From the NCBI GenBank assembly GCA_015233335.1, contig JADFXX010000002.1:891-64890 (forward strand): 64,000 nucleotides of DNA. Reading direction: 5' to 3'. Numbering within the stretch: position 1 is the stretch's first letter; each line of letters starts with the position of its first letter. This document shows positions 42,448 to 59,225 of this stretch, piece by piece. Below the pieces are notes generated by a model, which was given only the letters and a program-made list of their open reading frames with translations, was not told the DNA's origin and did not search any database. This DNA is from Candidatus Omnitrophota bacterium (GTDB taxonomy: Bacteria > Omnitrophota > Gorgyraeia > Zapsychrales > Fredricksoniimonadaceae). The translations under genes were made by a program, and so were the position numbers.

Positions 42448-42448
42448 C

Positions 42449-45070: not shown

Positions 45071-45473
45071 TTTCTATTCCATCAGCTCCCAAAGACGAAA
45101 GATCGTAACTATCCGGATTATGCGCACCGGGGAATACGTAAATATAGTCATGGCCCCAGGGATCTTTGGGAATTTTCTTTTTCTTTAAATAAGGACCATT
45201 CCACTGTGCCGGTACAGGGCTCACAGTCGGCAGTGTCAACAGAGCACTTAATCCCTGTTCGGTCGTAGGATATCGTCCGGTATCCATATGATATAAATCC
45301 AACGCCGTACTCAGATTAGACTCAATATCGGTCCGAGCCGCGGTCTTGCGCGTCTGCTCACTGCGTCCGGAGATATTAGGAACGATCATAGCCACCAATA
45401 TCCCGATGATAACGACCACAAGCATGATCTCAATTAAGGTAAAACCTCTTCTTTGATGAAAAAACATAATCAT
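45030..45473 (-). CDS. gspG: T2SS major pseudopilin GspG
   Basis: 147 aa. RRGFTLIEIMLVVVIIGILVAMIVPN followed by KTAARTDI...YPTTEQGL..L and DPWGHDYIY, the canonical GspG pattern. Confidence 0.9.
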   Translation of the reverse strand: MIMFFHQRRGFTLIEIMLVVVIIGILVAMIVPNISGRSEQTRKTAARTDIESNLSTALDLYHMDTGRYPTTEQGLSALLTLPTVSPVPAQWNGPYLKKKKIPKDPWGHDYIYVFPGAHNPDSYDLSSLGADGIESADDITNWGNESK

Positions 45474-45485
45474 CTCCCTATAGGG

Positions 45486-46703
45486 TCAATTAATAATCAT
45501 ATTCATCTGAAACATCGGCAAGAGCATGGCTACGATCATAAATCCCACGATACTTACCACCACAACCAATACTGCCGGCCCTAAGATCGTCACAAAAGCT
45601 CCTGCCATATCTTGGGAGGCGCGTTCGCAACTTGCGGCCAATTTATACAATCCTCTTTCTAATTTACCACTTTCCTGCCCTACGGCAATCAGATCAACAG
45701 CCATTTCCGGAAAAAGCGTACTTGCCTTAATCGCCTGTGTCAGGCTCATGCCGGCTTTAACCCTGAGCGCAATTTTCTTTACCTCTTCCTGCAGAGCGTG
45801 GTTGTCTACAACCATTGTCACCGACTCAAGCGCGGGCACAATAGGCACACCGCTTTCAAGCAACATCCCCAAAGTCCTGGAAAACCGGCTTAACTGGGTA
45901 TTTTCAATGTATGACTTTAATAAGGGGATTCTCAAAGAAAACCCGTCGATCCATGCTTTGCCCTGTCCGGTCTTCAAATAAGAACGTATCCATAAAATCA
46001 CGATTGTTATAACAGCAGCCATAAGCCACCAAAACTGAGCAAATACCCCACTTACGGCCACGACCATCCGGGTTACAAGCGGCAACTGGGCGTCAAAATC
46101 TTCAAACATCATTGTCAGACGAGGCAAAACAAAAGACAGCAGCACAAAAAGCGTCAACAAGCCAACAACAAGAATAATAACCGGATATAATAAACTCGCC
46201 TTAGCTTTGGACTGTATTTGCATATCATTTTCCAGAAATTGAGCCAGCCGATTTAATACCAGCGGCAGCTTACCGCTCGCTTCCGCCGCTTTGACAGTAT
46301 GAATATACAATGTTGAAAATATTCCCGGATATTTTGCTAAAGCAAAAGAAAGGCTTCCGCCTTGCTGTAATAAAACAGTCATCGACTCAATAACTCCGAC
46401 CATAACGGGAAATTGGCGCTGACGGGACAACAATTCCATAGAACGGGCTAAAGGGATTCCTGCATCTAATAAATCCGCCAACTGTCTGGTAAATTGGAAC
46501 AAAGCAGCCCGAGAAACACTGATATCAACCCCGGTTGATTTCGAAGACTGCGGTAACACCATTTTTTCGTGGAGCTTGACATCAAAAGGCATTTGCCCCG
46601 CATTGGTCAGACGGGTTACAGCATCGGCAACGCTTTCCGCGTCAATAAATCCACTGATCACGTCGTTGGGGCCACTTTTAGCTTTGTAAATGAAATGCGC
46701 CAT
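45486..46703 (-). CDS. gspF: T2SS inner-membrane platform protein GspF
   Basis: 405 aa. Two repeated T2SS-F cytoplasmic domains separated by TM helices. Confidence 0.85.
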   Translation of the reverse strand: MAHFIYKAKSGPNDVISGFIDAESVADAVTRLTNAGQMPFDVKLHEKMVLPQSSKSTGVDISVSRAALFQFTRQLADLLDAGIPLARSMELLSRQRQFPVMVGVIESMTVLLQQGGSLSFALAKYPGIFSTLYIHTVKAAEASGKLPLVLNRLAQFLENDMQIQSKAKASLLYPVIILVVGLLTLFVLLSFVLPRLTMMFEDFDAQLPLVTRMVVAVSGVFAQFWWLMAAVITIVILWIRSYLKTGQGKAWIDGFSLRIPLLKSYIENTQLSRFSRTLGMLLESGVPIVPALESVTMVVDNHALQEEVKKIALRVKAGMSLTQAIKASTLFPEMAVDLIAVGQESGKLERGLYKLAASCERASQDMAGAFVTILGPAVLVVVVSIVGFMIVAMLLPMFQMNMIIN

Positions 46704-46706
46704 CAG

Positions 46707-48314
46707 TTATTCGTCTTCCGTAACCCTTAAAACCTCGCTGGGGCTGGTTAAACCTTGAGCCACTTTTTCCCATCCATGCTGACGCAACGTCTTCATGCCG
46801 TCTAAAATAGCCAATTGTTTGATGTCCCTGCTGGTCGCCCGTGCGGTAACCAGCATACGCGTTTTTTCATTAAGCACCAAAAATTCACAAATTGCCTGCC
46901 GGCCTCTGTAGCCTGTCATACGGCATTCTTTACACCCTACAGCTTCATAAATGACAGGATCACGGGTAATATGGCTTAACTCAAATTCTTTTTTAATAGT
47001 GTCAGTGAAAGGCGTTTGTTTTTTGCAAGCTGGACACAACAGTCTCACCAAACGCTGCGCTAAAAAACACTCAACGGAGGAAGCGATTAAATAAGGCTCG
47101 ATGCCTATATCGATTAGGCGAGTGACCCCGGAGGCGGCATCATTGGTGTGCAAAGTTGAAAAAACCAGATGACCGGTTAAGGACATTTGGATGGCGATCT
47201 GCGCTGATTCAAAATCACGCACCTCCCCTATCATAATGACATCAGGGTCATTGCGCAGGATGGAACGCAGAGCCGCGGCAAATGTCAGGCCAATAGCTGA
47301 ATTGGCTTGAATTTGCACCGCTCCTTTAAGCTGATATTCCACCGGATCCTCAACTGTGATGATCTTAGTGTCTTCCGAATTGATGGCGGCTAAACACGAG
47401 TACAATGTAGTTGTTTTTCCGCTACCCGTTGGACCAGTTAAAAAAATGATTCCATGCGGTTTATTGATCAAGACCTCTAGCTGTCGACGTTCTTCTCCCA
47501 CAATACCCAATTCCTCAAGATTATATAAACGAAACGCGTTAAGCAAACGAATCACGCAACTTTCCCCGAAAGTAGTAGGTAAAAAAGACACTCTCAAATC
47601 CATATCAGTCCCTTCCACCTTGACTTTAAAGCGGCCGTCCTGCGGAAGACGCTTTTCGGCGATATTCAAGTTTGAAAGGATCTTAACGCGGGAGATCAGG
47701 GCATCCTGAAAATAACGGATATTTTCGGGAACTTGAGCGTCATAAAGCACCCCGTCGATACGATAGCGTATACGCAGCTCATTGCCGAAAGGTTCAATGT
47801 GAATGTCGGTAGCGCCGTCGCGGTGCGCCTGAAATAAGATTTGGTTCAAGAATTGACTGATCGATGCTTCAGAGGAAGATTGATCGATCGCTTCAATAGC
47901 GGGAAGCTCCGGGATCACCATCTGTGCATCAGACATCATTCTTTCGATTGTTTCTGCGCCGAGGCCATAATGTTCCCGAATAGCTTCGATGATGTCTTTT
48001 TCAGCCGCTAAAATAGGTTGAATAGGAGTTTGCGCTACCATACTTAAATCGTCAATCACGGACACTTCCCAGGGATTTCTCATAGCTACCGTCAAAGTCC
48101 CATTTTCATACTTGACAGGAAAAACTTTATAATGATTAACAGCTTTCGCAGGTAGACGGCCTAGGACCTGGGGGGAAACGGTAATTGCTTTTAAAGAAAT
48201 GAAATCAATCTGGCCCGTCATTTTTTGTTCTTCCAAAGCCTGTTTTAACTGCTCCGGGCTTATCACTCCCTTTTTTAATAGCAGCTCTCCTAAAAAAACA
48301 TATGGTTTTTTCAT
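46707..48314 (-). CDS. gspE: T2SS ATPase GspE
   Basis: 535 aa. Walker A GPTGSGKTT, Asp/His boxes, tetracysteine CPACK...CKECRMTGY, N-terminal T2SSE_N region. Confidence 0.9.
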   Translation of the reverse strand: MKKPYVFLGELLLKKGVISPEQLKQALEEQKMTGQIDFISLKAITVSPQVLGRLPAKAVNHYKVFPVKYENGTLTVAMRNPWEVSVIDDLSMVAQTPIQPILAAEKDIIEAIREHYGLGAETIERMMSDAQMVIPELPAIEAIDQSSSEASISQFLNQILFQAHRDGATDIHIEPFGNELRIRYRIDGVLYDAQVPENIRYFQDALISRVKILSNLNIAEKRLPQDGRFKVKVEGTDMDLRVSFLPTTFGESCVIRLLNAFRLYNLEELGIVGEERRQLEVLINKPHGIIFLTGPTGSGKTTTLYSCLAAINSEDTKIITVEDPVEYQLKGAVQIQANSAIGLTFAAALRSILRNDPDVIMIGEVRDFESAQIAIQMSLTGHLVFSTLHTNDAASGVTRLIDIGIEPYLIASSVECFLAQRLVRLLCPACKKQTPFTDTIKKEFELSHITRDPVIYEAVGCKECRMTGYRGRQAICEFLVLNEKTRMLVTARATSRDIKQLAILDGMKTLRQHGWEKVAQGLTSPSEVLRVTEDE

Positions 48315-48345
48315 ATACCCTTAAATCCCATGGTCAAGTGTTTCA

Positions 48346-50172
48346 TTACGGCACAGGAATTGTTGATTCATCTTTAGGCAAAGGATCATAATACGTCTTA
48401 TTGCCTTTTATAGCAGGGGATGTACTTATATATTCTTCAGAGTCGGCATGCACATCTCCATTGATGATATGCGGAGTTAAAAATATAACAATTTCAGATT
48501 TTTGCATATTTCGGTTTTCAGAATTAAACGCTTTACCGATAAAAGGTAAATCCCCTAAGACAGGAACCTTGGTCTTGCTATTGGAAACCTCATCCTTGAT
48601 CAAACCGCCGATGATGATGGTCACCCCATCCTTCACGCGAACGGTGGTTTGGACCTCGGAGGTATCAACAATAGGAATTGTGCTGCCTGTCGTTTTATCT
48701 TGAAAAGGAGTGGCCTCTTCATTGGAAATTTCAGGCTTGATCTTTATCGTAATGTACCCGTCTTCGTGGATGGACGGGGTCACGTGCAGTTTGACCCCGG
48801 TGTCGATAAAATTAACACTTTCTGCAGTGACCGGTGAGCCGGTAGCCGGAGTTGTGATCGAGCTTGTCGTATAAGGAGTGGTCGTTCCGATCAAAATACT
48901 GGCTTCCTGATTGTTGATCACAGCCAAATGAGGATTAGATAATGTGCGTGATTTGCCGAAAGTATCTAATGCTTGAAGAACGATATTATAGTTATCCCTG
49001 TTTAACGTCCCTATGGTCGCAGTACCGACACCGGCCGTTACCGCTCCCGGCAAACTGAAAGCGCTATGAAGGTCCACCACCGAATGGCCTGCTTTCGGAA
49101 TGATCTGTTCCCAATTGATTCCCATCTGATATTGGTCGCTCAAGGTGATCTGGACGATCTTCGCTTCGATAAAAACTTCCTTATCATCACGATCCAGCGC
49201 ATTGATCATGGCCTTGATCTCATCTATTTTAGAAGGGATATCCATCACAACCAGGGTATTGGAACGGGTATCAAATTCGACACTGCCGACATCCTTTGTC
49301 AGCATCGGAGTGATCGTCTTGGCCAGTTCATCGGTTTTCGCGTAATTGATATTAAAAACCTTGGTCTCGCGGGGAATGTCAATCTGCTTAATATACTTGT
49401 CTATTTCTGATAATTTCTTGGGAGTATCTTTGATGAACAGTTTATTGGAGAGACTGTCGAATTTGACACTACCGATCTTAGGACTGGTCATCTCCTGCAA
49501 TTTAGCAACCAGCGGCTGACCGGCTATATGCTGTAATTTATACACCTCCATCTGTGTCGGGGCGTCAATCGTCTTGATATAATCCAGCATTTGATTCAAT
49601 CTCTGAGGGACATCTTCGATAATAATGCTGTTAGATTGATCATCCGCGATCACTTTTCCGGCTTGACTTTTCACTTGGGCCAAGATCGCTACCACATCCG
49701 TTGCTTTTGCCGACTGAAGCGTTACGATGGTGCTCTCCATGCTAACCCCAAATTTATGACCGGTCGTCGCTTCATATTCAGCAGAGGTCATAATTTGAAC
49801 CACCCCACGGTTTTCTAGAAAAGCTAGGTCATTGGCTTGAAGGATGATCGTTAGAGCATCATGCACCTCAACGTTCTGTAAATAAATCGTCACCCGCCCT
49901 GTTATACTTTTTCCCGCGATAATATTTAACCCGGATTTAGCGGCCAATAATTTCAGAACATCATTGATGTCCATATCTTTTATCTCAAGTGTATCTAAAA
50001 TTGTCGACTTTTGTGATAAAGCGGCTAATGACGCATTAACAGCAGAGTCACGGGACGGATTTTCTGTGGGTGTTTCAGGCTTGTTGGCAACATCCAACAA
50101 CGGTTGGGACCAGGAGATACTGGAAGAAAAGAACCAGAAAATAAAAAATATTAGCTTAAAGCCCCTAAACAT
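48346..50172 (-). CDS. gspD: T2SS secretin GspD
   Basis: 608 aa. Signal peptide, N0/N1-type domains, C-terminal secretin core (VPVLGDLPFIGKAF...EIVIFLTPHI). Confidence 0.9.
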   Translation of the reverse strand: MFRGFKLIFFIFWFFSSSISWSQPLLDVANKPETPTENPSRDSAVNASLAALSQKSTILDTLEIKDMDINDVLKLLAAKSGLNIIAGKSITGRVTIYLQNVEVHDALTIILQANDLAFLENRGVVQIMTSAEYEATTGHKFGVSMESTIVTLQSAKATDVVAILAQVKSQAGKVIADDQSNSIIIEDVPQRLNQMLDYIKTIDAPTQMEVYKLQHIAGQPLVAKLQEMTSPKIGSVKFDSLSNKLFIKDTPKKLSEIDKYIKQIDIPRETKVFNINYAKTDELAKTITPMLTKDVGSVEFDTRSNTLVVMDIPSKIDEIKAMINALDRDDKEVFIEAKIVQITLSDQYQMGINWEQIIPKAGHSVVDLHSAFSLPGAVTAGVGTATIGTLNRDNYNIVLQALDTFGKSRTLSNPHLAVINNQEASILIGTTTPYTTSSITTPATGSPVTAESVNFIDTGVKLHVTPSIHEDGYITIKIKPEISNEEATPFQDKTTGSTIPIVDTSEVQTTVRVKDGVTIIIGGLIKDEVSNSKTKVPVLGDLPFIGKAFNSENRNMQKSEIVIFLTPHIINGDVHADSEEYISTSPAIKGNKTYYDPLPKDESTIPVP

Positions 50173-50681
50173 TAGCCACCTTTGTCATTTGATCCTTTAT
50201 GGATCGCTAAAGGGATATCTTGTCCTTGATAATTTATAATCAATTGATTCTTATTCACCCGCACAATCCTGATCCCAGCTTGGGGTTTCCCCTGATCTAT
50301 AAAATACGTCATGTGCGCCAAAGTATCTTCAATGATCACCTCGGATGTACCGGCTATTAAAATACCTACTATTTTTAAATGAGCAGGAAGCTGTCCCTTC
50401 GGAGTTATTTCAACATTCCCAGACGGGCCGATAGCAGTGGGAGAGGAAAAAATATCCCTGTTTTGAGCCCAAACAGCCGCGTCATAAGGCTTTAGGTCTA
50501 ATTCCGGTGCAGGTTGGATAAACTCCGCAGCCTTAATCGGAACGTCAATGCTTTCAGGGAGCATAGAATTACCCTGACTTATGAACATCGAATAAGCCAC
50601 ATAGGCACAAAGCCCAAGTGTCAAGACCATGGACAAGCGCTGGACCAACCGTAACACAGGCCATGCAAAGGGAATCCCCAT
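50172..50681 (-). CDS. GspC/PilP-like inner-membrane T2SS component (tentative)
   Basis: 169 aa. One TM helix plus a small beta-rich domain (LKIVGILIAGTSEVIIED...IRIVRVNKNQLIINYQGQ). First gene of the gsp operon, ending 1 nt into gspD. Confidence 0.45.
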   Translation of the reverse strand: MGIPFAWPVLRLVQRLSMVLTLGLCAYVAYSMFISQGNSMLPESIDVPIKAAEFIQPAPELDLKPYDAAVWAQNRDIFSSPTAIGPSGNVEITPKGQLPAHLKIVGILIAGTSEVIIEDTLAHMTYFIDQGKPQAGIRIVRVNKNQLIINYQGQDIPLAIHKGSNDKGG

Positions 50682-50783
50682 ATTCTAATCTATAATTATA
50701 AACACTTATTTAAATATTAAAAAGTAAAAGATAAGTTTTTTTATTGCGGAATTACTCTTTCCTGTGCGAAATCCAGACAATCT

Positions 50784-53669
50784 TTATTTCTTTGGCGCAA
50801 CAACAGTTACTTTATTAGAAGCCTGACTTTCGATACCGCTCGAGTTAACAGCCGTGACATAGTAACTTCCCGAACTGATACCTAAAACATAAACGCCTGT
50901 TGTGGCCGAAATACTGCCGTAAAAAGAAAAAGTTGTGCCATTTACGGAACCATAAATATTATTCTTTGTAATATTCAGACTATTGGACTGCGTCCATTGT
51001 AAAAGCACCGCGGGAGTCCCTTTGTAGCTTGTCGCTAAACCCGTCAAATTGGCAACAGGCGCCACAGTTACGGAACTTTTGGGTGTCGCGCTCACTTGCA
51101 GAGAATTTGGGCTGACAGCCCCAAACCCGCTTACATTGATATATGTTGAAACAACATAGTAATAAGTTGCCCCATTAACAACCGTCGTGTCCTTAAAATT
51201 ATTGGCTGTGGCATAACCAATGGTACTGTAGGGCCCTCCGTTTACTGTCGATCTTCCGATATAGTACCACAATGCTTGGGATACCGCATTCCATGAAAGG
51301 GTCACACTCCCCGACGCTGGAACAGCAGCCAATCCACTGGGAGCCGGTGGCGGTGCAAACGGAGTGACCATATACAGATTAGAATTCGGGCTTTCTCCTC
51401 CAGCATTGAGGGCACTGACAGTATAATAATAAGTCATTTGGTTTTTGGCGGATGTGTCCACATATGTTAAGTTCTTTGTTTGGCTTGTCAGTACAGTAAA
51501 GGGGCCGCTCGTCGCAGTGGATCTTTTGACATTATACGACGTCGCCCCGACACTGGCATTCCAGGACACGGCAACTTGATTATTACCGGGCATCACTGAA
51601 AGACCTGTAGGAGCCGCCGGAGGCGAAAGGGCCGGAGCCATAGGCTTGGCCTGCACCTGTGAGGAATTGGCACTTTCTCCAGCCGCATTGACTGCGCTCA
51701 CTACATAATAGTATGTTGTTCCATTGGCAACTGACGTGTCCGTATAGCTGCCTGTCTTAACAGCGCCACTGACAGAGATCGTGGAATATGGCCCTGCGCT
51801 GACCGTAGATCTTTTAACATTGTAATAAACAGCTGTTGTGCTGATGCCCCAAGCAAGAGCGACTTGCGCATTGCCTGCGGTAGCATTTAAACTAGTAGGC
51901 ACGGCCGGAGGAACAGCCTTAGTTGATCCAACCAAGTCATTATACAAATTTACACCATTAAAGGCCCCCAAACCCGTTGCATCATCGAAACCCGCCTGAG
52001 CAGTATAATACTGGTTATTGCCGGCTACTATGTCATGAAAATCTGTAGAATATTTGCTGCCAGCAGCTAAGAGATAAAGCACGGGATTTAAAAATCCTAC
52101 GATCGATTGACCGGCGTGTACCCTGCCTTGATTGACCTGGGCCAAAAAAGCAGCCCAGGTCGGTGCAGCTATGCTGGAACCCCAGAAACCATACCACCCT
52201 GAAGATTGAGGAGCGGTCGTTATATAAAAAGCATATGCGGTCGAGGGGTCCGCTGTCAGGGAAACATCCGGCACATTGCGCATAGTTTTTGATACCTTTG
52301 AAGCACTGCTCGCTGTTGATGCCATGGCTTGTTGATAAGAAGGAATAGTGTTAAACATGCTTACCCCACCGCCGCCATAGAGGGATGAGGTCTCACTCTT
52401 ATAGGTCCCATCGGAATTCATGACCAAGGCACTAATCCCAACGCCCGTTGCAAACGGTTGAGAAGAAGGCTCATCGGCTGATAATGTTTTTGTCGAACAA
52501 TCAGCATAAGCTCCGCAATCTCCTGATGCCACAAATACTTCCTGTCCCTGAGCTGCCATTCTTTGAAAAATCTGATTATCAAAACTCACTGTCGGAGCAT
52601 AGTACTCAGCAAGACCCCAGGAACAACTGATGATCTTGGCTAAATTATCATTGGCGATTTTGGTCCACTCATCATCCCAAGCTTGAAACGTGTTCGGGGC
52701 TTCATAAACATAAATCTTGTTAATAGACCAGGGCGCAATCCCTATCAATTCCTCAATATCGAGAGTGACCTCTTCGTTGCCTCCGTTGTAGGTCGGCAAT
52801 CCATTAAATCCATCAACAAGGACATTCTGCAACGTCACACTATTATTAGGAAGATGAAAATAGGATTCATACGCCGCAATGTCGCTTTGTAAATATCCGT
52901 CAAGCTCAAAAAGAGCCACATTTTGCAGTGAACTGGGATCACTGATAGATGGAATGGCGTTAAGATTATACGCTTTTTGCACATCCCCGAAAGCAAGATA
53001 TCCTCCTGGACCTGTGCCCATGTGAGGAACCGCCACCTGAGCTTGACCAAAACTTTGAGAAGGATTGAGTGGCAAGCGGTTCGAATGAGGCTTGAATTTA
53101 AGCGCGTTGTCCATACCCCCAACTGCCCAAACCTTCCCGACAATTTCCGTTGAAATCGTTGGGTTGGCGTCGGGAGCAAAAAACGTTGTACCGTCGTTCT
53201 TGGAATAATGGTTAATATGCACCCCGAAGGTTTTCTCAACGACCCCCACCGCTCCTTTTATCTGCAAAACAGTCCCGTTAGGTGATTGGGTAATTATTGT
53301 AAACCCTCTGGAATTAAAGTAACTTTTTAATTTATTTAAGTCCATATCAGAAGACTTGAACTGCTGATTAAACTGATCTGAAGTTAAAAAATGATGATAA
53401 TTAGGGCTGGTCGGATCATAAATACTTTTAAGCAAAGTGTCTAATTGTACTTGGTTCGTTAAAGGTACTATGATCCTCAAATCCATCATTTCATTAGCAT
53501 CAGCATGGTGATCAAATTTAGACAAAGCCACTGCTTGCGGCACATGTCCGGCCAATGTGCGGCTGCCATCAAGGTTATCTTTGTAATGCAAGGTTGTATC
53601 AGCAAATGAATATTGGGCCATTGCGCCCATAAAAATGACCAATAAAATCTTAAGAAGATTTTTGCGCAT
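50784..53669 (-). CDS. Secreted S53 (sedolisin/kumamolisin-like) serine-carboxyl peptidase with four C-terminal FN3 domains (paralog 1)
   Basis: 961 aa. Signal peptide; pro-kumamolisin-type activation region (DLRIIVPL...YDPTSPNYHHFLTSDQF); catalytic motifs EVTLDIE, ASGDCGAY and WGSSIAAPTWA; four repeats of about 90 aa with YNVKRS / TYYYVVSAVN patterns. Confidence 0.85.
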   Translation of the reverse strand: MRKNLLKILLVIFMGAMAQYSFADTTLHYKDNLDGSRTLAGHVPQAVALSKFDHHADANEMMDLRIIVPLTNQVQLDTLLKSIYDPTSPNYHHFLTSDQFNQQFKSSDMDLNKLKSYFNSRGFTIITQSPNGTVLQIKGAVGVVEKTFGVHINHYSKNDGTTFFAPDANPTISTEIVGKVWAVGGMDNALKFKPHSNRLPLNPSQSFGQAQVAVPHMGTGPGGYLAFGDVQKAYNLNAIPSISDPSSLQNVALFELDGYLQSDIAAYESYFHLPNNSVTLQNVLVDGFNGLPTYNGGNEEVTLDIEELIGIAPWSINKIYVYEAPNTFQAWDDEWTKIANDNLAKIISCSWGLAEYYAPTVSFDNQIFQRMAAQGQEVFVASGDCGAYADCSTKTLSADEPSSQPFATGVGISALVMNSDGTYKSETSSLYGGGGVSMFNTIPSYQQAMASTASSASKVSKTMRNVPDVSLTADPSTAYAFYITTAPQSSGWYGFWGSSIAAPTWAAFLAQVNQGRVHAGQSIVGFLNPVLYLLAAGSKYSTDFHDIVAGNNQYYTAQAGFDDATGLGAFNGVNLYNDLVGSTKAVPPAVPTSLNATAGNAQVALAWGISTTAVYYNVKRSTVSAGPYSTISVSGAVKTGSYTDTSVANGTTYYYVVSAVNAAGESANSSQVQAKPMAPALSPPAAPTGLSVMPGNNQVAVSWNASVGATSYNVKRSTATSGPFTVLTSQTKNLTYVDTSAKNQMTYYYTVSALNAGGESPNSNLYMVTPFAPPPAPSGLAAVPASGSVTLSWNAVSQALWYYIGRSTVNGGPYSTIGYATANNFKDTTVVNGATYYYVVSTYINVSGFGAVSPNSLQVSATPKSSVTVAPVANLTGLATSYKGTPAVLLQWTQSNSLNITKNNIYGSVNGTTFSFYGSISATTGVYVLGISSGSYYVTAVNSSGIESQASNKVTVVAPKK

Positions 53670-53714
53670 AATTTTTCCTTTTAAAAATTGGAAACTGATA
53701 AAGGGAGGGTATTA

Positions 53715-53815
53715 AAAAGAGGTTATCCGAGGTCCGCTCGACTACCATAGGTTGCCCTTTAGGTTCGATCCTTTGCGCCGCCAGGTTTCCCTGACTTTGC
53801 CTTTTACTCTAACCG
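53715..53815 (-). promoter_or_regulatory. Candidate c-di-GMP-I (GEMM-I) riboswitch aptamer (boundaries approximate)
   Basis: Minus-strand RNA: AAAAGGCAAA-GUCAGG-GAAA-CCUGGC-GGCGCAAAGG-AUCGAA-CCUAAAG-G-GCAA-C-CUAUGG-UAGUCGAGCGGACC. This gives GGCAAA, a 6-bp helix with a GAAA tetraloop, CGCAAAG, both halves of a tetraloop receptor, and AGCGG, in the GEMM-I order. Confidence 0.75.
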
Positions 53816-53817
53816 GT

Positions 53818-53846
53818 AGTATACCATCTCATCGATCGGCTGTCAA
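53818..53846 (-). promoter_or_regulatory. Sigma70 promoter driving the riboswitch leader
   Basis: Minus strand: TTGACA (53846..53841), 17 nt (GCCGATCGATGAGATGG), TATACT (53823..53818). Confidence 0.6.
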
Positions 53847-53884
53847 AATGCGGAAAAAAAGAAGATGCACGGCCTTTTCAATTG

Positions 53885-54859
53885 CTATATTTGCAGCCCT
53901 ATACGCAAACCGTACTCTTGGGTATTATTTCTCGGTTCATAAAGAACCGCGGTGGGATCAGTCGGATCAACTTTACTATTAGACTGCGCGATCTTCCAGT
54001 ATCGATAAAATCCTTCTGCAAAAGCAGTAAAATACTTAAAATATAAATTCAACCTTAAAGAGGCCCTCAAGCCATACCCGCCTCTTTGATCTACGACGAG
54101 CGTACTATAACCCGGGATGTCTCCTAATTTGCTCACCTGCCAACCATTAAACATATAATCATACTCAAGGTTGCTTTCAAAACTGGAATTAGGATATTTC
54201 TGATATACAATATCTGCTCCTAAAGGCAAGTAGCAATAATGTGAGAACCTTTTATACCCTTGCAAAGTATACTCATCGGTGACAGTAATCAGCCCTTCTG
54301 AGTTATCTTTCAAATACCTGTAGCCAAAACCAAAGTATCCTGTTGTCCTCAAATAGGAAGAAGGGTAGAAATCTTTTCCGACGACACCTCTTATATCAAA
54401 GGTGCTATCTTTAATGCCAGAAGGCCCTTGATCAGGAGCTTGTTTAAATTTCCCGCTAGCCCACTGCCCTTGAATTCGGAACATATTAATAATGGATTGA
54501 GGAGCGCTAGTCATTCTATGGGAAAATTGGGCACTGTATCCCGACATAAATCCTTTTTGATACATATTCTTAGGCTCGTCGTATTTAGCCCAATACAGTT
54601 CAGGGCTGAAGCTTAACTCATTTGTCTTAGGAGCGATGGCGGGCTTGAAAGAAGGAATTATAATAGTGTTATTCTTAGAAGGAGAAGCAACTGACGGCTT
54701 AATACCCGAAATTTCTATTTTGTCCAATTCTTGATTAACTTGCCGCATATGCACGTAACTGGAGGGCAAGTAATTCTCTGACCAGTTGTCCGCACAACAG
54801 ACAGAAATAGCGAAAAAATATATCGTCGCAGATAAGATAATTAAAGAAAATCGCATCAT
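53885..54859 (-). CDS. Putative outer-membrane beta-barrel protein (unknown family)
   Basis: 324 aa. N-terminal signal, Pro/Ser-rich linker, then about 230 aa with alternating aromatic beta-strand periodicity ending ...YGLRIGLQI. Confidence 0.5.
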   Translation of the reverse strand: MMRFSLIILSATIYFFAISVCCADNWSENYLPSSYVHMRQVNQELDKIEISGIKPSVASPSKNNTIIIPSFKPAIAPKTNELSFSPELYWAKYDEPKNMYQKGFMSGYSAQFSHRMTSAPQSIINMFRIQGQWASGKFKQAPDQGPSGIKDSTFDIRGVVGKDFYPSSYLRTTGYFGFGYRYLKDNSEGLITVTDEYTLQGYKRFSHYCYLPLGADIVYQKYPNSSFESNLEYDYMFNGWQVSKLGDIPGYSTLVVDQRGGYGLRASLRLNLYFKYFTAFAEGFYRYWKIAQSNSKVDPTDPTAVLYEPRNNTQEYGLRIGLQI

Positions 54860-54872
54860 AAGAAATAGACGA

Positions 54873-57743
54873 TCAATAATTTACTGTCACCGAATTGGAA
54901 GCCAAACTTTCAACCCCGCTTGAATTAAAAGCCGTAACTTTATAATTATAAACCGTTCCTTTTGTCGTATTCTTATCCGTGTATGAAGTTGATGCACCAA
55001 CGGTAGCCAACAGAGAATAAGCACCGGCACCTACGGAACGATAAATCTTATTTTGAACTACACCGGGCGCTATTGACTGTGCCCAATATAACACGACCCC
55101 TCCATAGACAATTCTGCCTCCTACTCTGGCCGCTAAAAGCGTTGCTTTTATGTTCGTTGGGGCTGGCATGCCCTGGGGGGCTGCACTTACTTCAAAAGAA
55201 TTGGCCCCTTCACCGGTGCCATTAACCGCACTGACTACGTAGTAATAGGTGGTCCCGTTGGTCAGATTAGTATCTGTATAAGATGGAGTTGTGACTGCTC
55301 CGGGTGTAGATACGGTTGAATATGACCCGCCGCTTGTTGGCGATCTTTTAACATTATAGGACGTTGCACCATTAGCGTTCCAAGTCAATGTTACTTGTTT
55401 ATTACCTGAAGCAGCATTTACTCCCGTCGGAGCTAAGGGCAAAGTTGCCAAGGGTGTGAGCGGTATTTCTACAGAATTCGCACCCTCCCCACTTGCATTA
55501 AGCGCGCTAATGACATAGTAATAAGGGGTGTTGTTGCTAAGGCCGCTGTCTGTAAAAGATGTCCCCGTAACTGTGGCTATGGTTGAATACCCGCTTCCGC
55601 TGGTTAAAGATCTTTTAACATGATACGACGTGGCTGTTGGCGTCACATTCCAATTGATGGTGGCTTGTGTGTTGCCCGGAGTACCGTTCTGTCCTGTCGG
55701 AGCTGACGGAGGGGCAATAGGAGTAGCACTAACCTGAGAAGAAAATGTGCTTTCTTCTCCTAAAATACTAACCGAAGTGACCACATAATAATATGTTGTC
55801 CCATTGATGACATTGGTGTTATCTGTATAAGGAAGCGAGGTTATACCGGTGTATGTTGGTGTTGAATAAGAATTAGAAGTGGTTGACCTGTAAATTTTAT
55901 ACGACACTGCTGCCGGAATAAGACTCCAGGACAGTGTGACTTGGGCATTTCCCGCTGTCGCGGTCAAACCGCTAGGCGTTGCAGCAAAGAGATCATTGTA
56001 CAAACCAAGACCACTAACAGAACCTATCAAAGAACCTAACCCTGTGACAAGGTCATACCCTATTCCTGCTGAAAAGCCATTATTCCCTGAGGTTATATCA
56101 TGATAATCTAGAGCATTGTGACTTCCTTGGGCAATCGTATAAAGTGACGGATTAAGAAAACCAATAGGAGTCTGTCTAACCTGATTAACGCGGGTTACAA
56201 GAGCTGCCCAGATGGGCGTCGCAACACTAGATCCCCAATAACAGCCCCAACTCCCACCAATTAAAACATCATAACAAGAGCTCAGGCTATTATCTGCAGT
56301 TAGGGCTACATCAGGAACATTACGTCCTCCGGCAGTAATGCCGGCCAATCCCTGCTGATACAACGGGACCGGCCAAGTTCCGCTAATCCCTCCGCCGCTT
56401 TCTGAAGAACCCGTTTCAGAGCTCCAATTCCCAGAAGGATCTGTTGTCAAGGCACTGATCCCAACAGCAGTTACACCGGGGTCAGAAGCAGGAGAACTGG
56501 CATTTGTAGTAGGACCGGAAGTGTTGTAAGCTCCTGCATCACCCGACGCTACCATAATAGTCACTCCCTGAGTGGCCATCTGTTGAAAAAGAGTATGCTC
56601 CGTATCGAGAATAGAAAAACCGCTAAAAAGGATAATATTAGCTATCGACTGCTCTGCAATCCCCCATGAAACGCTGACCACTTGTGCTATATTATCACTT
56701 GCGATCCGTTCCCATTCATCAATATAATTCAAAGCAGTATTTTGGGCCTCATAAACCAAGATCTGCTTAAGCCCCTGGGCAATTCCCAATGCTATTTCAA
56801 TGTCCAGCGTCACTTCGTCAGTACTGGGTCCGGCCGACCCATCATACCCATCAATCAAAACATTCTGCAAACTAGGCAAGTGAAAACCAAAATAACCGGC
56901 ATAAGTAGAAATATCACTTGCCAAATATCCATCAAGTTCAAAAAGCGCTAATGTCTGATTATTGCCATCAGTCGTATTCAACGTAAAATTATAAGCTTTA
57001 GCGACATCTTGAGGCTCAAGCCCTCCGTTAGGCCCATGATGAGCTAGGGGTTGCGCCTTCACTCCGCCCGTGGCGGTGACTATACCTTTTTGCAATGACT
57101 TATTTTGCTTGGGGCCTGTATACTTATGGTTAAAAGCCTGAAACTTTACTGCGTTGTCCAACCCGATAACTGCCTTTATTTTCCCTGCCATTGGAGTAGG
57201 AATCGTTGGATCCGCATCAGGAGCGAAAAATAGCGTCCCGTCACTTCTTTTATAATTATTAACGTTAAGCTTAAAAGCATGCTCAACTTTTGATAATGGG
57301 CCTGTCACAGAAAGAATAAGCCCGTTTTTTGACTGTCTCTTAACGGTCAAGCCCAGTGACTTAAGATTTTCTTGAACTATTGAAAAGTCGAGTGCAGAGG
57401 CTCCAAATTGCTGGGCAAATTGTTCAGGAGTTATGAATTTATGATAAATCGGGCTTTGGGGATCGTAAAGGTTCTTAATAAGTTGATCCAATCCGGCTTG
57501 GTCCTTAACAGGCAGAATGATTCGAAGATCAAGCGTTTGATTAGAGTTCGCATGTGCTATTCTTTGGGCTTTGCCTTTAGACACTTCTCCGGGGACGTAA
57601 TTAAGCAGGGTTTGACTGCCATCCGGATTATTTTTAAAATGAGCCGTTAATTTTTTTTCTTGGGCATTGGCCAGAGAACTCAATAAGACAAGAACAGCCA
57701 TTGTCAAATTCCAAAACGTGCCCATCTTTTTAAAAATCGTCAT
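54873..57743 (-). CDS. Secreted S53 (sedolisin/kumamolisin-like) peptidase with C-terminal FN3 domains (paralog 2)
   Basis: 956 aa. Signal peptide (SLANA|QE); pro-domain (DLRIILPV...YDPQSPIYHKFITPEQF); catalytic motifs EVTLDIE, ASGDAGAY and WGSSVATPIWA; FN3 repeats with YNVKRS / TYYYVVSAVN. Confidence 0.85.
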   Translation of the reverse strand: MTIFKKMGTFWNLTMAVLVLLSSLANAQEKKLTAHFKNNPDGSQTLLNYVPGEVSKGKAQRIAHANSNQTLDLRIILPVKDQAGLDQLIKNLYDPQSPIYHKFITPEQFAQQFGASALDFSIVQENLKSLGLTVKRQSKNGLILSVTGPLSKVEHAFKLNVNNYKRSDGTLFFAPDADPTIPTPMAGKIKAVIGLDNAVKFQAFNHKYTGPKQNKSLQKGIVTATGGVKAQPLAHHGPNGGLEPQDVAKAYNFTLNTTDGNNQTLALFELDGYLASDISTYAGYFGFHLPSLQNVLIDGYDGSAGPSTDEVTLDIEIALGIAQGLKQILVYEAQNTALNYIDEWERIASDNIAQVVSVSWGIAEQSIANIILFSGFSILDTEHTLFQQMATQGVTIMVASGDAGAYNTSGPTTNASSPASDPGVTAVGISALTTDPSGNWSSETGSSESGGGISGTWPVPLYQQGLAGITAGGRNVPDVALTADNSLSSCYDVLIGGSWGCYWGSSVATPIWAALVTRVNQVRQTPIGFLNPSLYTIAQGSHNALDYHDITSGNNGFSAGIGYDLVTGLGSLIGSVSGLGLYNDLFAATPSGLTATAGNAQVTLSWSLIPAAVSYKIYRSTTSNSYSTPTYTGITSLPYTDNTNVINGTTYYYVVTSVSILGEESTFSSQVSATPIAPPSAPTGQNGTPGNTQATINWNVTPTATSYHVKRSLTSGSGYSTIATVTGTSFTDSGLSNNTPYYYVISALNASGEGANSVEIPLTPLATLPLAPTGVNAASGNKQVTLTWNANGATSYNVKRSPTSGGSYSTVSTPGAVTTPSYTDTNLTNGTTYYYVVSAVNGTGEGANSFEVSAAPQGMPAPTNIKATLLAARVGGRIVYGGVVLYWAQSIAPGVVQNKIYRSVGAGAYSLLATVGASTSYTDKNTTKGTVYNYKVTAFNSSGVESLASNSVTVNY

Positions 57744-57860: not shown

Positions 57861-59225
57861 TTATTTGCCTAAATCTTTCAACAAACGGTCACGGTCAAGG
57901 CCAATCTTAGCCATGGCTTCTTTAGGGTTAAGCGCATAAAAATGACAAAAAGTGGTCACTTCTTTGATGGTATGGACGTCACGGTCATTCAAGACTTTTA
58001 AAACAGCGCCACGCATCCAGGTTTCATTAATAATATCCCGCGGGGTTAATCCCGCCTCGCGGCTTAAGCGGTCTCGATAAACCGTACTGGGAGAGACCGC
58101 TATAACACGTTTCTGCTCATAACTATATTTAAAAACATGGGAAAGCAACACGCGCACTTCATCCGCACTAGTTTCAGAAATTTCATCGACAACACGAAAT
58201 AGTTGGCCTCCCACATGATAACGTTTGAGGATGACAAACACATCAATTAAATTAATCAACACTTCAGGAACGTTCATGGGTTCGTTGTGAAGCCGCGTGA
58301 TGGTTTCCCTTGCGGTCAGCGCATGAATAGTCCCCATGCAATATTTACCGATATTGACCGCGGTGATCATATCACGGGCCTCTGACCCCCGGACTTCCCC
58401 GACAATAACACGCTCGGGCCTCATACGCAGGCTATTTTTAACCAAGTCCGAAAGGGTCAATTCATCATCGGTTTCCAAGCGGGAAGCACTATCCTCTAGG
58501 AATGTGTTTAACTCCAAGGTGTCTTCGATCACGACCAAACGATCTTTGGGAGGGATAAAGCTCAGCAAAGCATTAAGCAATGTGGTTTTACCAGTCCCCG
58601 GACCGCCGGCAATGATCATGTTAGCCGGCCTCACAGATAAGCCTTCCAGGTAAAGCCACAACTGACCCGCCGCCTCATAACTCATACTTTGACGACGGAT
58701 CAAATCAATAATGCTCAAAGGATCTGTTTTAGCTTTGGTAATGGTCAACTGCACCCCTAAGGGGGAGTCAATGATATTGACACGACCCGCAAGATTTGCT
58801 AATTCCAGATTTGCGATCTTGTGGTAGCCTTTTCGACCCGAAAAAACCAGCAATTTCTGCACAAAATTATTTAATTCATAACGGGAGTTGAAACGCTTAT
58901 CGGTTGCGATGAAACCTTTTTGAGAGTGATGGATATAAATAGGTTTTAAAGCATTAATGATAATATCCTCGACTTCGGCACTGTAAAGCAGATCTTCAAT
59001 GATGTCATAACAGAGGAATTTCTTAATAAAAACGTTTCGATCTTCAGCCGATGCCAGAACATTCGCAAAAGCTTTGCCTTCATCATTGAGTAATTCCTGC
59101 AAAGCAGTTTTAACCACAGAGACCCGCTCCTCCGAAGACTGCATGAGCGTCATACGTCCCATGAGCCGCCCAAGGAGCAATGCTTCCAATTGAAGCTGAT
59201 CATTTTTTGACATAACCGAACTCAA
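57861..59225 (-). CDS. Type II/IV secretion-family ATPase, FlaI / archaeal-type PilB-like
   Basis: 454 aa. Walker A GGPGTGKTT, Walker B region RVIVGEVRG, His-box region GTIHA, and a FlaI-style C-terminal helical tail. The track start is TTG at 59225; an alternative ATG is at 59213. Confidence 0.75.
   Translation of the reverse strand: MSSVMSKNDQLQLEALLLGRLMGRMTLMQSSEERVSVVKTALQELLNDEGKAFANVLASAEDRNVFIKKFLCYDIIEDLLYSAEVEDIIINALKPIYIHHSQKGFIATDKRFNSRYELNNFVQKLLVFSGRKGYHKIANLELANLAGRVNIIDSPLGVQLTITKAKTDPLSIIDLIRRQSMSYEAAGQLWLYLEGLSVRPANMIIAGGPGTGKTTLLNALLSFIPPKDRLVVIEDTLELNTFLEDSASRLETDDELTLSDLVKNSLRMRPERVIVGEVRGSEARDMITAVNIGKYCMGTIHALTARETITRLHNEPMNVPEVLINLIDVFVILKRYHVGGQLFRVVDEISETSADEVRVLLSHVFKYSYEQKRVIAVSPSTVYRDRLSREAGLTPRDIINETWMRGAVLKVLNDRDVHTIKEVTTFCHFYALNPKEAMAKIGLDRDRLLKDLGK

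What the first reader, a model, noticed from the sequence alone, without database searches (positions are those of the whole stretch)
53715..53846. Candidate c-di-GMP-I (GEMM-I) riboswitch with a consensus promoter upstream of the first S53 protease and the T2SS block
The 215-nt gap between the barrel gene and S53 paralog 1 is not empty.

Aptamer. On the minus strand, 53805..53731 reads AAAAGGCAAA GUCAGG GAAA CCUGGC GGCGCAAAGG AUCGAA CCUAAAG G GCAA C CUAUGG UAGUCGAGCGGACC. In order, this reproduces the hallmarks I know from the Vibrio cholerae Vc2 GEMM-I aptamer (GGCAAA CCAUUC GAAA GAGUGG GACGCAAAGC ... GGUAGGUAGCGG):
- the GGCAAA strand;
- a 6-bp helix, including one G.U, capped by a GAAA tetraloop (53789..53786);
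- the CGCAAAG junction strand, retaining the A that stacks between the two ligand guanines;
- a second helix carrying both halves of an 11-nt-type GAAA-tetraloop receptor (CCUAAA at 53763..53758, UAUGG at 53749..53745), itself closed by a GCAA tetraloop;
- the AGCGG segment.

Context. Directly upstream is TTGACA, 17 nt, TATACT (53846..53818). Downstream are a U5 tract (53718..53714) and the SD/ATG of the protease gene. Only a 102-nt gap with no obvious terminator separates that gene from the 11-gene gsp operon, so the element could gate both cargo and machine. The same window encodes a REC-GGDEF-HD-GYP enzyme (8402..9997).
Basis: partly seen in the sequence, partly recalled or inferred. Interest (0 to 1): 0.8.

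Follow-up and report, generated by a model that had tools for sequence, protein, structure and literature searches.

The report
c-di-GMP riboswitch before secreted protease gene
The 215-base gap holds a genuine class I c-di-GMP riboswitch at the start of the mRNA for a secreted kumamolisin-type protease in an uncultured Omnitrophota bacterium: a sound but ordinary member of a well-known RNA family, whose on/off direction could not be settled.

Summary
Rfam's c-di-GMP-I model (RF01051) matches window 53811..53733 (minus strand) over its full length, at 49.7 bits against a gathering score of 35. It is the only copy in the window. An 11/12 sigma-70 promoter with a TGn extension ends about 7 nt before the aptamer.

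The gene downstream (53669..50784) is a pro-kumamolisin/S53 protease. It is identical to a protein from a 'Candidatus Omnitrophica' MAG.

The element is conserved. Eleven other distinct loci encoding S53 homologues carry the same aptamer just upstream, and one homologue locus does not. Related aptamers precede pilin-like genes, pectate-lyase-like proteins, a papain-like peptidase and a PilZ protein in Omnitrophota-type MAGs. Across 23 copies, 95% of cells pair and 12 of 20 pairs show compensatory changes. G20, A47 and the C44-G83 equivalents are present, so c-di-GMP is expected rather than cGAMP.

Two points are not supported or not resolved:
- The U5 tract is not a convincing terminator. Its hairpin is only -5.5 kcal/mol and is not conserved.
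- Co-regulation of the type II secretion operon is possible but not shown, and it is not conserved.

Most relatives have a clear terminator/antiterminator layout of the OFF type. I lean towards OFF here, with low confidence. This is a new member of a known kind.

The parts
53841..53846 (-). Promoter -35 hexamer TTGACA
   Evidence: TTGACA-17-TATACT, 11 of 12 matches. Relatives have a TTGACA-like box, about 17 nt, then (T/C)ATACT at the same distance from the aptamer.
53818..53826 (-). Extended -10 element TGgTATACT. The inferred transcription start is about 53811-53810, so the aptamer sits at the very 5' end of the mRNA.
   Evidence: The start site is inferred from the usual 7-nt spacing after the -10 box and has not been mapped.
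53729..53811 (-). c-di-GMP-I (GEMM-I) aptamer. Sub-features:
- G20 equivalent: G53801.
- First hairpin: 53795-53790 with 53785-53780, GAAA loop at 53789-53786.
- C44 equivalent: C53777.
- A47 equivalent: A53774.
- Second helix: 53767-53762 with 53746-53744 and 53741-53739.
- AG bulge at 53743-53742, with G53742 as the G83 equivalent.
- Tetraloop receptor: CCUAAA at 53763-53758 with UAUGG at 53749-53745.
- Distal stem: GG at 53757-53756 with CC at 53751-53750 (optionally plus A53758-U53749), GCAA loop at 53755-53752.
- C92 equivalent: C53732 or C53736.
- Putative 3-bp P1: GAG at 53809-53807 with CUC at 53731-53729.
   Evidence: RF01051 hit 53811..53733, 49.7 bits, gathering score 35. Clade model R1 hit 53813..53722, 81.7 bits. 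Covariation counts. Contact-residue definitions from PMC4744006 and PMC6140456. The P1 helix and C92 assignment are inferred from GAG-N5-G and ACCUC, which are conserved in all five 'type A' copies.
53670..53728 (-). Expression platform (unresolved). It contains:
- The 3' arm (53731-53721) of a weak hairpin that pairs with 53746-53737.
- The U-rich tract UCUUUUUAA at 53720-53712.
- CCCUUUA at 53705-53699.
- The SD region UUAAAAGGA at 53684-53676.
   Evidence: the minimum-energy fold pairs the U-rich tract with the SD (9 bp), and the hairpin is worth -5.5 kcal/mol; none of these pairings beats shuffled controls; no strong terminator.
50784..53669 (-). Regulated gene: a secreted pro-kumamolisin/S53 (sedolisin-family) protease of 961 aa, with a signal-peptide-like N-terminus
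   Evidence: Pfam Pro-kuma_activ, 97.9 bits. PDB kumamolisin 1t1e, E = 8e-37 over residues 88-584. 100% identical to NCBI HQL14_01250 from a 'Candidatus Omnitrophica bacterium' MAG.
40484..50681 (-). Eleven-gene type II secretion block (C-like, D, E, F, G, pseudopilins, K, L-like, M). It may be read through from the riboswitch-controlled transcript, but this is not shown.
   Evidence: Pfam hits. The 102-nt gap 50783..50682 has no terminator-like site and no promoter passing the scan's thresholds on this strand, but it does contain a TATAAT box. The arrangement is not conserved in relatives.

Best explanation
This is a functional class I c-di-GMP riboswitch (GEMM-I, RF01051). It forms the first roughly 80 nt of the mRNA of a secreted S53 (kumamolisin-like) protease in an Omnitrophota bacterium.

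Shown:
- A strong sigma-70 promoter match ends about 7 nt before the aptamer.
- The RNA has the two-hairpin GEMM-I fold, with a GAAA tetraloop, an 11-nt-type receptor, and equivalents of G20, A47 and the C44-G83 pair.
- The same aptamer sits in front of S53 homologues in eleven other distinct loci.
- The helices covary.

Inferred:
- c-di-GMP, made and degraded by enzymes such as the REC-GGDEF-HD protein in the same window, binds at the three-helix junction.
- Binding locks the second helix and a short P1 (GAG 53809-07 with CUC 53731-29).
- This changes what the 59-nt spacer (53728..53670) can pair with, and so sets protease expression.

The read-out in this copy is not a classical terminator. 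My best guess, at about 45%, is an OFF switch acting on translation initiation: the U-rich tract UCUUUUUAA (53720-12) pairs with the SD region UUAAAAGGA (53684-76) when the aptamer is closed, while ligand-free alternative folds leave the SD more open. I lean towards OFF mainly by homology. Most relatives carry a strong terminator whose 5' arm is complementary to the aptamer's 3' strand UCGAGCUG, and one relative (L157) has its SD directly after the aptamer. Both are OFF layouts.

If transcription also reads through into the adjacent T2SS operon, the same signal would tune the secretion machine as well. That step is unproven.
For: - Rfam: RF01051 at 49.7 bits against a gathering score of 35, E = 1e-6, full length. 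It is also the best hit within its clan.
- Clade model R1: 81.7 bits, single copy in the window.
- Conservation upstream of S53 homologues: L001, L002, L004; L005, L007; L022, L023, L034; L156, L157, L158.
- Covariation on 23 copies: 95.4% of cells paired, 12 of 20 pairs with changes on both sides, 0 of 500 shuffles reach the observed score, and slid controls give 20-37% paired.
- Promoter: 11/12 match with a TG extension, and the promoter-to-aptamer spacing recurs in relatives.
- Ligand rule: G20 gives c-di-GMP, A20 gives cGAMP (PMC6140456). The window has G at this position.
- Contact residues and the interhelical pair are as defined in PMC4744006.
- OFF architecture in relatives: 18 of the 19 copies carrying the UCGAGCU 3' strand have a terminator of -13 to -23 kcal/mol; in 17 of them it ends 71-98 nt after AGUCGAGC (L019 is the exception, at 201 nt). 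The 5' arm of most pairs with the aptamer's 3' strand at up to -21.5 kcal/mol, and this beats shuffles (fraction <= 0.05) in 8.
- In L157 the SD follows directly after the aptamer.
- Equilibrium folding: the probability that the SD's GGA is unpaired falls from about 0.16 to 0.01-0.11 when the aptamer is enforced.
- The organism has c-di-GMP enzymes: REC-GGDEF-HD at 8402..9997.
Against: - No ligand binding or expression data exist. The transcription start is inferred only.
- The leader as a whole folds no better than shuffles (z = 0.43).
- U-tract:SD, aptamer:leader and 5'-end:leader duplexes are all within the shuffled range, with fractions of 0.13-0.86.
- In L002 the SD is predicted to be sequestered with or without the aptamer, so the translational model has no comparative proof.
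- The four outer pairs of the second helix in the Rfam consensus are not canonical here.
- The C92 equivalent can be placed at C53732 or C53736, depending on the alignment.
- P1 is only 3 bp and is invariant, so covariation cannot test it.
- One S53 homologue locus (L006) has no aptamer.
Confidence: 0.85

Rival explanations
1. This is the same genuine c-di-GMP-I riboswitch, but it works as a transcriptional ON switch. Without ligand, the 3' strand of the second helix (GGUAGUCGAG, 53746-53737) pairs with CUCGGAUAACC (53731-53721). That hairpin, followed by UCUUUUU, terminates transcription. Ligand binding holds the strand in the aptamer and allows read-through. This is essentially the first reader's U5-tract idea.
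For: The hairpin and the U5 tract exist and are mutually exclusive with the second aptamer helix. At 90-97 nt of transcript, the hairpin fold and the aptamer fold differ by only 1-3 kcal/mol, so a ligand could tip the balance.
Against: The hairpin is worth only -5.5 kcal/mol and has a mismatch and a bulge. Neither terminator scan finds it. The closest relatives (L002, L005, L023) have CUCAA instead of CUCGG, so they lack the hairpin. Relatives that do have clear terminators are wired the opposite way, as OFF switches.
Confidence: 0.25
2. The aptamer senses a different cyclic dinucleotide, such as 3',3'-cGAMP as in GEMM-Ib, or another ligand. The reason would be this clade's unusual base of the second helix (GGAU / GAGC) and its altered 3' tail (GAGCGgACCUC).
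For: The four outer pairs of the second helix are non-canonical, and the 3' tail differs from the consensus. Some clade members do vary at the G20 position: A in L022, and U in L014 and L020.
Against: The window copy has G at the G20 position, plus A47 and a C at a C92-compatible position. G20 is the c-di-GMP determinant and A20 the cGAMP one (PMC6140456). RF01051 outscores the variant families of its clan. A GGDEF enzyme is encoded in the window.
Confidence: 0.05
3. It is a chance resemblance, or a decayed relic that no longer regulates, and the leader is constitutive.
For: The expression platform cannot be shown to be better than chance. The outer pairs of the second helix are missing.
Against: The E-value is 1e-6 across the whole window. 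The aptamer is retained in front of homologous genes in eleven other loci whose proteins are only 45-66% identical. Compensatory changes occur in 12 of 20 pairs. The promoter-to-aptamer spacing is conserved.
Confidence: 0.04

Closest known systems
Vc2 c-di-GMP-I riboswitch of Vibrio cholerae (upstream of tfoY), the structural reference for GEMM-I
   Same: Same order of elements: G20-GC-AAA, a hairpin with a GAAA tetraloop, GAC/GGC-GC-AAA with the intercalating A47, a second helix with a CCUAAA/UAUGG-type receptor and an AG bulge carrying the G83 equivalent, and a C for the second guanine. Vc2 is reported to act as an OFF switch (abstract of bioRxiv 10.1101/617340).
   Different: The distal stem here is only 2-3 bp, closed by a GCAA loop. 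The four outer pairs of the second helix are replaced by a conserved GGAU/GAGC arrangement. P1 appears to be 3 bp with a 5-nt one-sided internal loop. The aptamer starts within a few nt of the inferred transcription start. The host is Omnitrophota, not Gammaproteobacteria.
Cd1 c-di-GMP-I riboswitch of Clostridioides difficile (flagellar operon), a transcription-terminating OFF switch
   Same: The 'type B' relatives found here (for example L001, L014, L020, L032, L156) have the same logic. A strong intrinsic terminator follows the aptamer, and its 5' arm can pair with the aptamer's 3' strand. Cd1 is described as an OFF switch in PMC4744006.
   Different: The window copy itself has no strong terminator, so it probably does not work like Cd1.
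c-di-GMP riboswitch control of the secreted zinc metalloprotease ZmpI in C. difficile
   Same: It is a precedent for a c-di-GMP-sensing leader that controls a secreted protease (mentioned in PMC4744006).
   Different: To my knowledge that riboswitch is class II (c-di-GMP-II), which I did not check here. The protease family also differs (zinc metalloprotease versus S53 serine-carboxyl peptidase), as does the phylum.
GEMM-Ib (3',3'-cGAMP) riboswitches of Geobacter
   Same: Same fold and the same Rfam-level architecture.
   Different: GEMM-Ib has A at the G20 position (PMC6140456). The window has G. Only the relative L022 has A there.

Membership tests
c-di-GMP-I riboswitch (GEMM-I, Rfam RF01051) | Score at or above the curated gathering score of the family covariance model, full length | tested here: met
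   49.7 bits against 35, model positions 1-87 of 87, E = 1e-6 for the window. Same hit with E = 7.9e-9 on the 501-nt region.
c-di-GMP-I riboswitch (GEMM-I, Rfam RF01051) | Two adjacent hairpins whose pairs are supported by covariation | tested here: met
   23 clade copies: 95.4% of cells paired, 12 of 20 pairs with compensatory change. All 6 pairs of the first hairpin, 2 of the second and 4 of the distal stem covary. Slid controls give 20-37%. Caveat: 20 nt of the aptamer were fixed by the search pattern used to collect most copies.
c-di-GMP-I riboswitch (GEMM-I, Rfam RF01051) | GNRA tetraloop on the first hairpin and a tetraloop receptor in the second | tested here: met
   GAAA at 53789-53786. 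CCUAAA at 53763-53758 with UAUGG at 53749-53745. The feature is defined in PMC4744006. Docking itself was not tested.
c-di-GMP-I riboswitch (GEMM-I, Rfam RF01051) | Ligand-contacting G20 and intercalating A47 | tested here: met
   G53801 aligns to model position 11 and A53774 to position 38. The residues are defined.
c-di-GMP-I riboswitch (GEMM-I, Rfam RF01051) | C92 that Watson-Crick pairs with the second guanine | tested here: inconclusive
   A C is available, but its position depends on the alignment. For the window, cmscan deletes four positions and aligns AGCGGA (C53736). The alignment of the near-identical L002 tail and the conserved ACCUC motif point to C53732.
c-di-GMP-I riboswitch (GEMM-I, Rfam RF01051) | Interhelical C44-G83 Watson-Crick pair | tested here: met
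   C53777 (in GGC) and G53742 (in the AG bulge) are present. Both columns are invariant in the 23 copies. The pair is described as universally conserved in PMC4744006. It is met by sequence only.
c-di-GMP-I riboswitch (GEMM-I, Rfam RF01051) | P1 helix closing the junction | tested here: inconclusive
   Only GAG (53809-07) with CUC (53731-29), with a 5-nt loop on the 5' side. The same arrangement occurs in all five type A copies, but it is invariant, so there is no covariation to test it.
c-di-GMP-I riboswitch (GEMM-I, Rfam RF01051) | Location in the 5' leader of a gene, on the same strand, downstream of a promoter | tested here: met
   The promoter lies at 53846..53818. The aptamer ends about 60 nt before the ATG at 53669. 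The same placement is seen in 11 other S53 loci.
c-di-GMP-I riboswitch (GEMM-I, Rfam RF01051) | High-affinity, selective binding of c-di-GMP | not testable with these tools
   Needs in-line probing, ITC or DRaCALA.
c-di-GMP-I riboswitch (GEMM-I, Rfam RF01051) | Ligand-dependent expression platform | tested here: inconclusive
   Candidate pairings exist, but none exceeds shuffled controls. Relatives have clear platforms.
GEMM-Ib (cGAMP) riboswitch | Adenine at the position equivalent to Vc2 G20 | tested here: not met
   The window has G53801. The rule is from PMC6140456.
   The hairpin is worth -5.5 kcal/mol with a mismatch and a bulge. It is not reported by the consensus scan or by my scan with a -8 kcal/mol threshold.

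The most novel reading that the evidence does not exclude
One c-di-GMP-sensing leader heads a polycistronic transcript of about 13 kb that carries both the cargo (the S53 protease) and the whole 11-gene type II secretion machine. The machine's ATPase GspE additionally carries an MshEN-type c-di-GMP-binding N-terminus. The same messenger would then act on secretion at the RNA level and at the protein level. This would be part of a lineage-wide Omnitrophota GEMM-I regulon of secreted hydrolases and pilins, which may be relevant to the proposed host-dependent lifestyle of these bacteria (that last link is from my own knowledge and was not checked here).
Probability: 0.25. Interest if true: 0.5.

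Novelty: new member of a known kind. Interest (0 to 1): 0.3.

Why it matters
The finding adds a well-supported instance of a familiar riboswitch in a phylum with no cultured, genetically tractable members. It shows that in these Omnitrophota-type genomes GEMM-I is repeatedly placed in front of secreted S53 proteases, pilin-like genes and other extracellular enzymes, with up to seven copies in one MAG. That gives a cheap, sequence-based way to read part of the c-di-GMP regulon of uncultured bacteria, and a set of natural aptamer variants with at least two different expression-platform designs. It does not change what is known about how c-di-GMP riboswitches work.

Tried and rejected
1. The protein-based scan of GTDB genomes with the 961-aa protease found no relative. 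I replaced it with the search for homologous proteins plus contig look-ups.

It returned almost only chance matches, with one real aptamer (L139). I therefore could not enlarge the 'type A' set beyond five copies.

3. Terminator reading of the U5 tract: rejected as the main mechanism.

4. A decoy model. UAAAAGG occurs twice, at 53806-00 inside the aptamer and at 53683-77 in the SD, and both copies are complementary to the U tract. The model is attractive, but the duplex is weaker than about -4.3 kcal/mol (the best 5'-end:leader duplex) and is not better than shuffles. I kept it only as a speculative component.

5. Seven-nt complements between the distal-stem region and the leader: UAAAGGG/CCCUUUA in the window, GGAUAAA/UUUAUCC in L002, AAGGGUA/UACCCUU in L023. 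They were seen by eye and in minimum-energy folds, but they are absent in L005 and L139, and the aptamer:leader duplex is not significant.

6. Second copies in the window: none. The next R1 hit scores 10.5 bits with E = 0.49.

7. A sub-threshold DUF2815 RNA hit at 53667..53748 (25.5 bits against 41.2) was dismissed, because it is driven by the A-rich SD region.

8. Literature searches for Omnitrophota riboswitches, and for S53/sedolisin or type II secretion together with c-di-GMP riboswitches, found nothing specific.

Full report
**Observation**

Going 5' to 3', it contains:
- TTGACA (53846-41), a 17-nt spacer ending in TGg, and TATACT (53823-18). This is an 11/12 match and the best promoter-like site in 51500..54500.
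- AGAGUAAAAG, then G-GC-AAA.
- A 6-bp hairpin with a GAAA loop (53795..53780).
- GGC-GC-AAA.
- A second helix carrying CCUAAA/UAUGG and an AG bulge, with a 2-3-bp distal stem closed by GCAA.
- UCGAGCGGACCUC, then a 59-nt spacer, the SD AAGGA (53680-76) and the ATG (53669).

**Is it more than chance?**

A cmscan of the whole window against all 4227 Rfam families at gathering thresholds returns three tRNAs and one riboswitch. The riboswitch is RF01051 (c-di-GMP-I) at 53811..53733 on the minus strand: 49.7 bits against a gathering score of 35, E = 1e-6, model positions 1-87 of 87. In a permissive search of the 501-nt region it remains the best member of its clan. The only irregularity is that the four outermost pairs of the second helix in the consensus are not formed. 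A covariance model built from 23 related copies (R1) scores the site at 81.7 bits and finds no other copy in the 64 kb.

**Gene context**

- The gene that starts 60 nt after the aptamer (53669..50784, 961 aa) has a Pro-kumamolisin activation domain. It aligns to pro-kumamolisin 1t1e over residues 88-584 with E = 8e-37, so it is an S53 protease.
- It is 100% identical to HQL14_01250 of an NCBI 'Candidatus Omnitrophica bacterium' MAG.
- Upstream lie a 324-aa ORF with no Pfam match and a second S53 paralogue.
- Downstream, after a 102-nt gap, lie eleven tightly packed T2SS genes: secretin GspD, ATPase GspE, GspF, GspG, pseudopilins, GspK, and L-like and M-like proteins.
- A REC-GGDEF-HD protein is encoded at 8402..9997.

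**Relatives**

I looked up contigs encoding the closest S53 homologues, which are 45-66% identical. Every readable locus except one has an RF01051 or R1 hit immediately upstream on the same strand:
- L001, L002 (identical to L003) and L004, at 51.7-53.8 bits.
- L005 and L007 (identical to L008), at 51-53 bits.
- L156, L157 and L158 (identical to L159).
- L006 has none.

None of these loci has a T2SS operon directly downstream on the same strand. L156 has only an oppositely oriented T2SSE-type gene further downstream.

A pattern scan of GTDB species genomes with 20 nt of the aptamer gave 17 further real copies plus 8 chance hits. All real copies come from MAGs labelled Omnitrophota or 'uncultured Planctomycetales'. 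One MAG (CAZKUL01) has seven. The downstream genes are:
- S53 proteases: L022, L023, L034.
- Pairs of N-methyl pilin-like genes: L012, L013, L017, L019, L021, L030.
- Pectate-lyase/beta-helix proteins: L009, L020, L026.
- A LamG-Big protein: L016.
- A papain-like peptidase: L032.
- A PilZ-FeeM protein: L027.
- Proteins with no Pfam hit above the curated cut-off: L014, L025.

This is the classic GEMM theme of extracellular and surface functions.

**Structure test**

I tested the Rfam-type structure on a MAFFT alignment of 23 copies (A1). It gives 95.4% paired cells, and 12 of 20 pairs have changes on both sides. The covariation score is 0.51 against 0.20 in shuffles (0 of 500 reach it). Sliding the 3' partners by 1-3 columns gives 20-37% paired. 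Because the collecting pattern fixed CGCAAAGGATCGNNCCTAAA, conservation of those 18 specified bases is by construction. The covarying pairs lie in the first hairpin, two positions of the second helix and the distal stem, and none of their columns was fixed by the pattern (the two second-helix positions fall at its NN).

**Ligand**

The literature defines G20, A47 and C92 as the contacts and C44-G83 as a universally conserved interhelical pair (PMC4744006). G20 is replaced by A in cGAMP-sensing GEMM-Ib (PMC6140456). The window has:
- G53801 as the G20 equivalent.
- A53774 as the A47 equivalent.
- C53777 and G53742 as the C44-G83 equivalents.
- A cytosine that can serve as C92, at either C53736 (cmscan's alignment) or C53732 (by analogy with the L002 alignment and the conserved ACCUC).

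The expected ligand is therefore c-di-GMP.

**Expression platform**

Two designs appear among the relatives.

*Type B.* This is the majority design, with the 3' strand UCGAGCUGC:
- 18 of its 19 copies have a terminator of -13 to -23 kcal/mol. In 17 it ends 71-98 nt after AGUCGAGC; in L019 the terminator found ends 201 nt after it.
- The terminator's 5' arm contains (CAG)CUCGA-like sequence that pairs with the aptamer's 3' strand. Examples are -21.1 kcal/mol in L001, -18.9 in L020 and -21.5 in L032.
- In 8 copies this pairing beats shuffles, with a fraction of 0.05 or less.
- Ligand-locked aptamers would free the terminator, so this is OFF logic.

*L157.* It has a canonical aptamer, with its SD (AAAAGGAAC) directly after the ACC and a complementary GUUCUUUU 5' of the aptamer. 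This is also an OFF layout.

*Type A.* This design is found in the window copy and in L002, L005, L023 and L139. The 3' end reads UCGA(G/A)CG-N-ACCUC, with a conserved GAG exactly 5 nt before G20. Except for L139, these copies have no strong terminator.

In the window:
- The hairpin before the U5 tract is worth only -5.5 kcal/mol and is not conserved.
- Minimum-energy folds pair UCUUUUUAA (53720-12) with the SD region (9 bp). L002 has an analogous 12-bp U-tract:SD helix.
- Enforcing the aptamer lowers the unpaired probability of the SD's GGA from about 0.16 to 0.01-0.11 in the window, but it changes nothing in L002.
- None of these duplexes is better than shuffled leaders, and the leader's overall folding z-score is 0.43.

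I therefore regard the read-out and its sign as unresolved. My estimates are about 45% for OFF at translation, about 25-30% for ON through the weak hairpin and U tract, and the remainder for other mechanisms or none.

**T2SS coupling**

The 102-nt gap has no terminator-like site and no promoter passing the scan's thresholds on the gene strand. It does contain a perfect TATAAT box about 10 nt before the next start codon. Read-through is plausible but untested, and the arrangement is unique to this window among the loci examined.

**Comparison and novelty**

Every sequence-level defining feature of GEMM-I that could be tested is met or, for C92 and P1, inconclusive. None is failed. The cGAMP subclass feature is not met. 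The family, its ligand and its typical regulon are well known, and a standard Rfam scan finds this copy. What is new is modest:
- An instance in an uncultured Omnitrophota genome.
- A recurrent pairing with S53 proteases.
- A clade-specific variant of the second-helix base.
- Two different platform designs.

Full-text searches found no paper on Omnitrophota riboswitches, or on c-di-GMP riboswitches linked to S53 proteases.

**Verdict**

This is a new member of a known kind, with an interest score of 0.3.

Noticed in passing
window 46707..48314 (-): The T2SS ATPase GspE has an N-terminal MshEN domain (63 bits). Its residues 7-30, FLGELLLKKGVISPEQLKQALEEQ, fit the c-di-GMP-binding motif RLGxx(L/V/I)(L/V/I)xxG(L/V/I)(L/V/I)xxxxLxxxLxxQ as I recall it, except that F replaces the first R. 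The secretion machine may therefore sense c-di-GMP directly.
   Followed up: partly
L009, L017, L025, L026, L027, L032 (all from MAG CAZKUL01) and other loci: GEMM-I is expanded in Omnitrophota-type MAGs. One MAG gave seven pattern matches, six of them distinct aptamers listed here. They sit in front of pilin-like gene pairs, S53 and papain-like peptidases, pectate-lyase-like proteins and a PilZ-FeeM protein. Nearly all have a TTGACA-17-CATACT promoter ending about 10 nt before the aptamer.
   Followed up: partly
L022:1885..1900 (aptamer 5' part); also L014 and L020: At the position equivalent to Vc2 G20, L022 has A (UAGCAAAA), which is the cGAMP or bispecific signature. L014 and L020 have U. 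L022 also precedes an S53 protease. The ligand specificity of these variants is unknown.
   Followed up: no
L001, L004, L007, L014, L020, L032 and others, 20-100 nt after the aptamer: Most relatives carry a long terminator of -13 to -23 kcal/mol at a nearly constant distance. Its 5' arm is complementary to the invariant aptamer 3' strand UCGAGCUG. This is a clean antiterminator/terminator OFF design.
   Followed up: yes
window 53733..53729 and 53723..53719 (-): The motif ACCUC, which ends the aptamer in all type A copies, occurs twice, 10 nt apart, in the window only (GGACCUCGGAUAACCUCUUUUU). Its significance is unknown. It could offer two alternative 3' ends for P1.
   Followed up: no
window 57861..59225 (-), 54873..57743 (-), 53885..54859 (-): A second T2SSE-type ATPase (454 aa) is followed by a second S53 paralogue (956 aa, with an fn3 domain) and a 324-aa ORF with no Pfam match. 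These lie directly upstream of the riboswitch promoter. No riboswitch precedes this paralogue.
   Followed up: partly
window 8402..9997 (-) and 10390..12606 (-): The REC-GGDEF-HD (HD_5) protein lies next to a PocR-PAS-PAS histidine kinase. This is a likely two-component input into c-di-GMP turnover.
   Followed up: partly
window 38547..38999 (-) and 39998..40444 (-): A small cNMP-binding-domain protein and a DUF2721 protein are encoded just beyond the end of the T2SS block.
   Followed up: no
L005:6030..6110 and L023:4750..4800: In two S53 homologue loci the reading frame of the signal peptide has no canonical start codon at the expected place. L005 needs a frameshift, and L023 has AUA where AUG is expected. 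These are probably assembly errors (a long-read contig and a roughly 2x-coverage contig), but they limit use of these leaders for platform comparison.
   Followed up: partly
window 53667..53748 (-): A sub-threshold match to DUF2815 RNA (RF03084, 25.5 bits against a gathering score of 41.2) overlaps the aptamer's 3' end and the SD. I judged it to be driven by the A-rich SD region.
   Followed up: no
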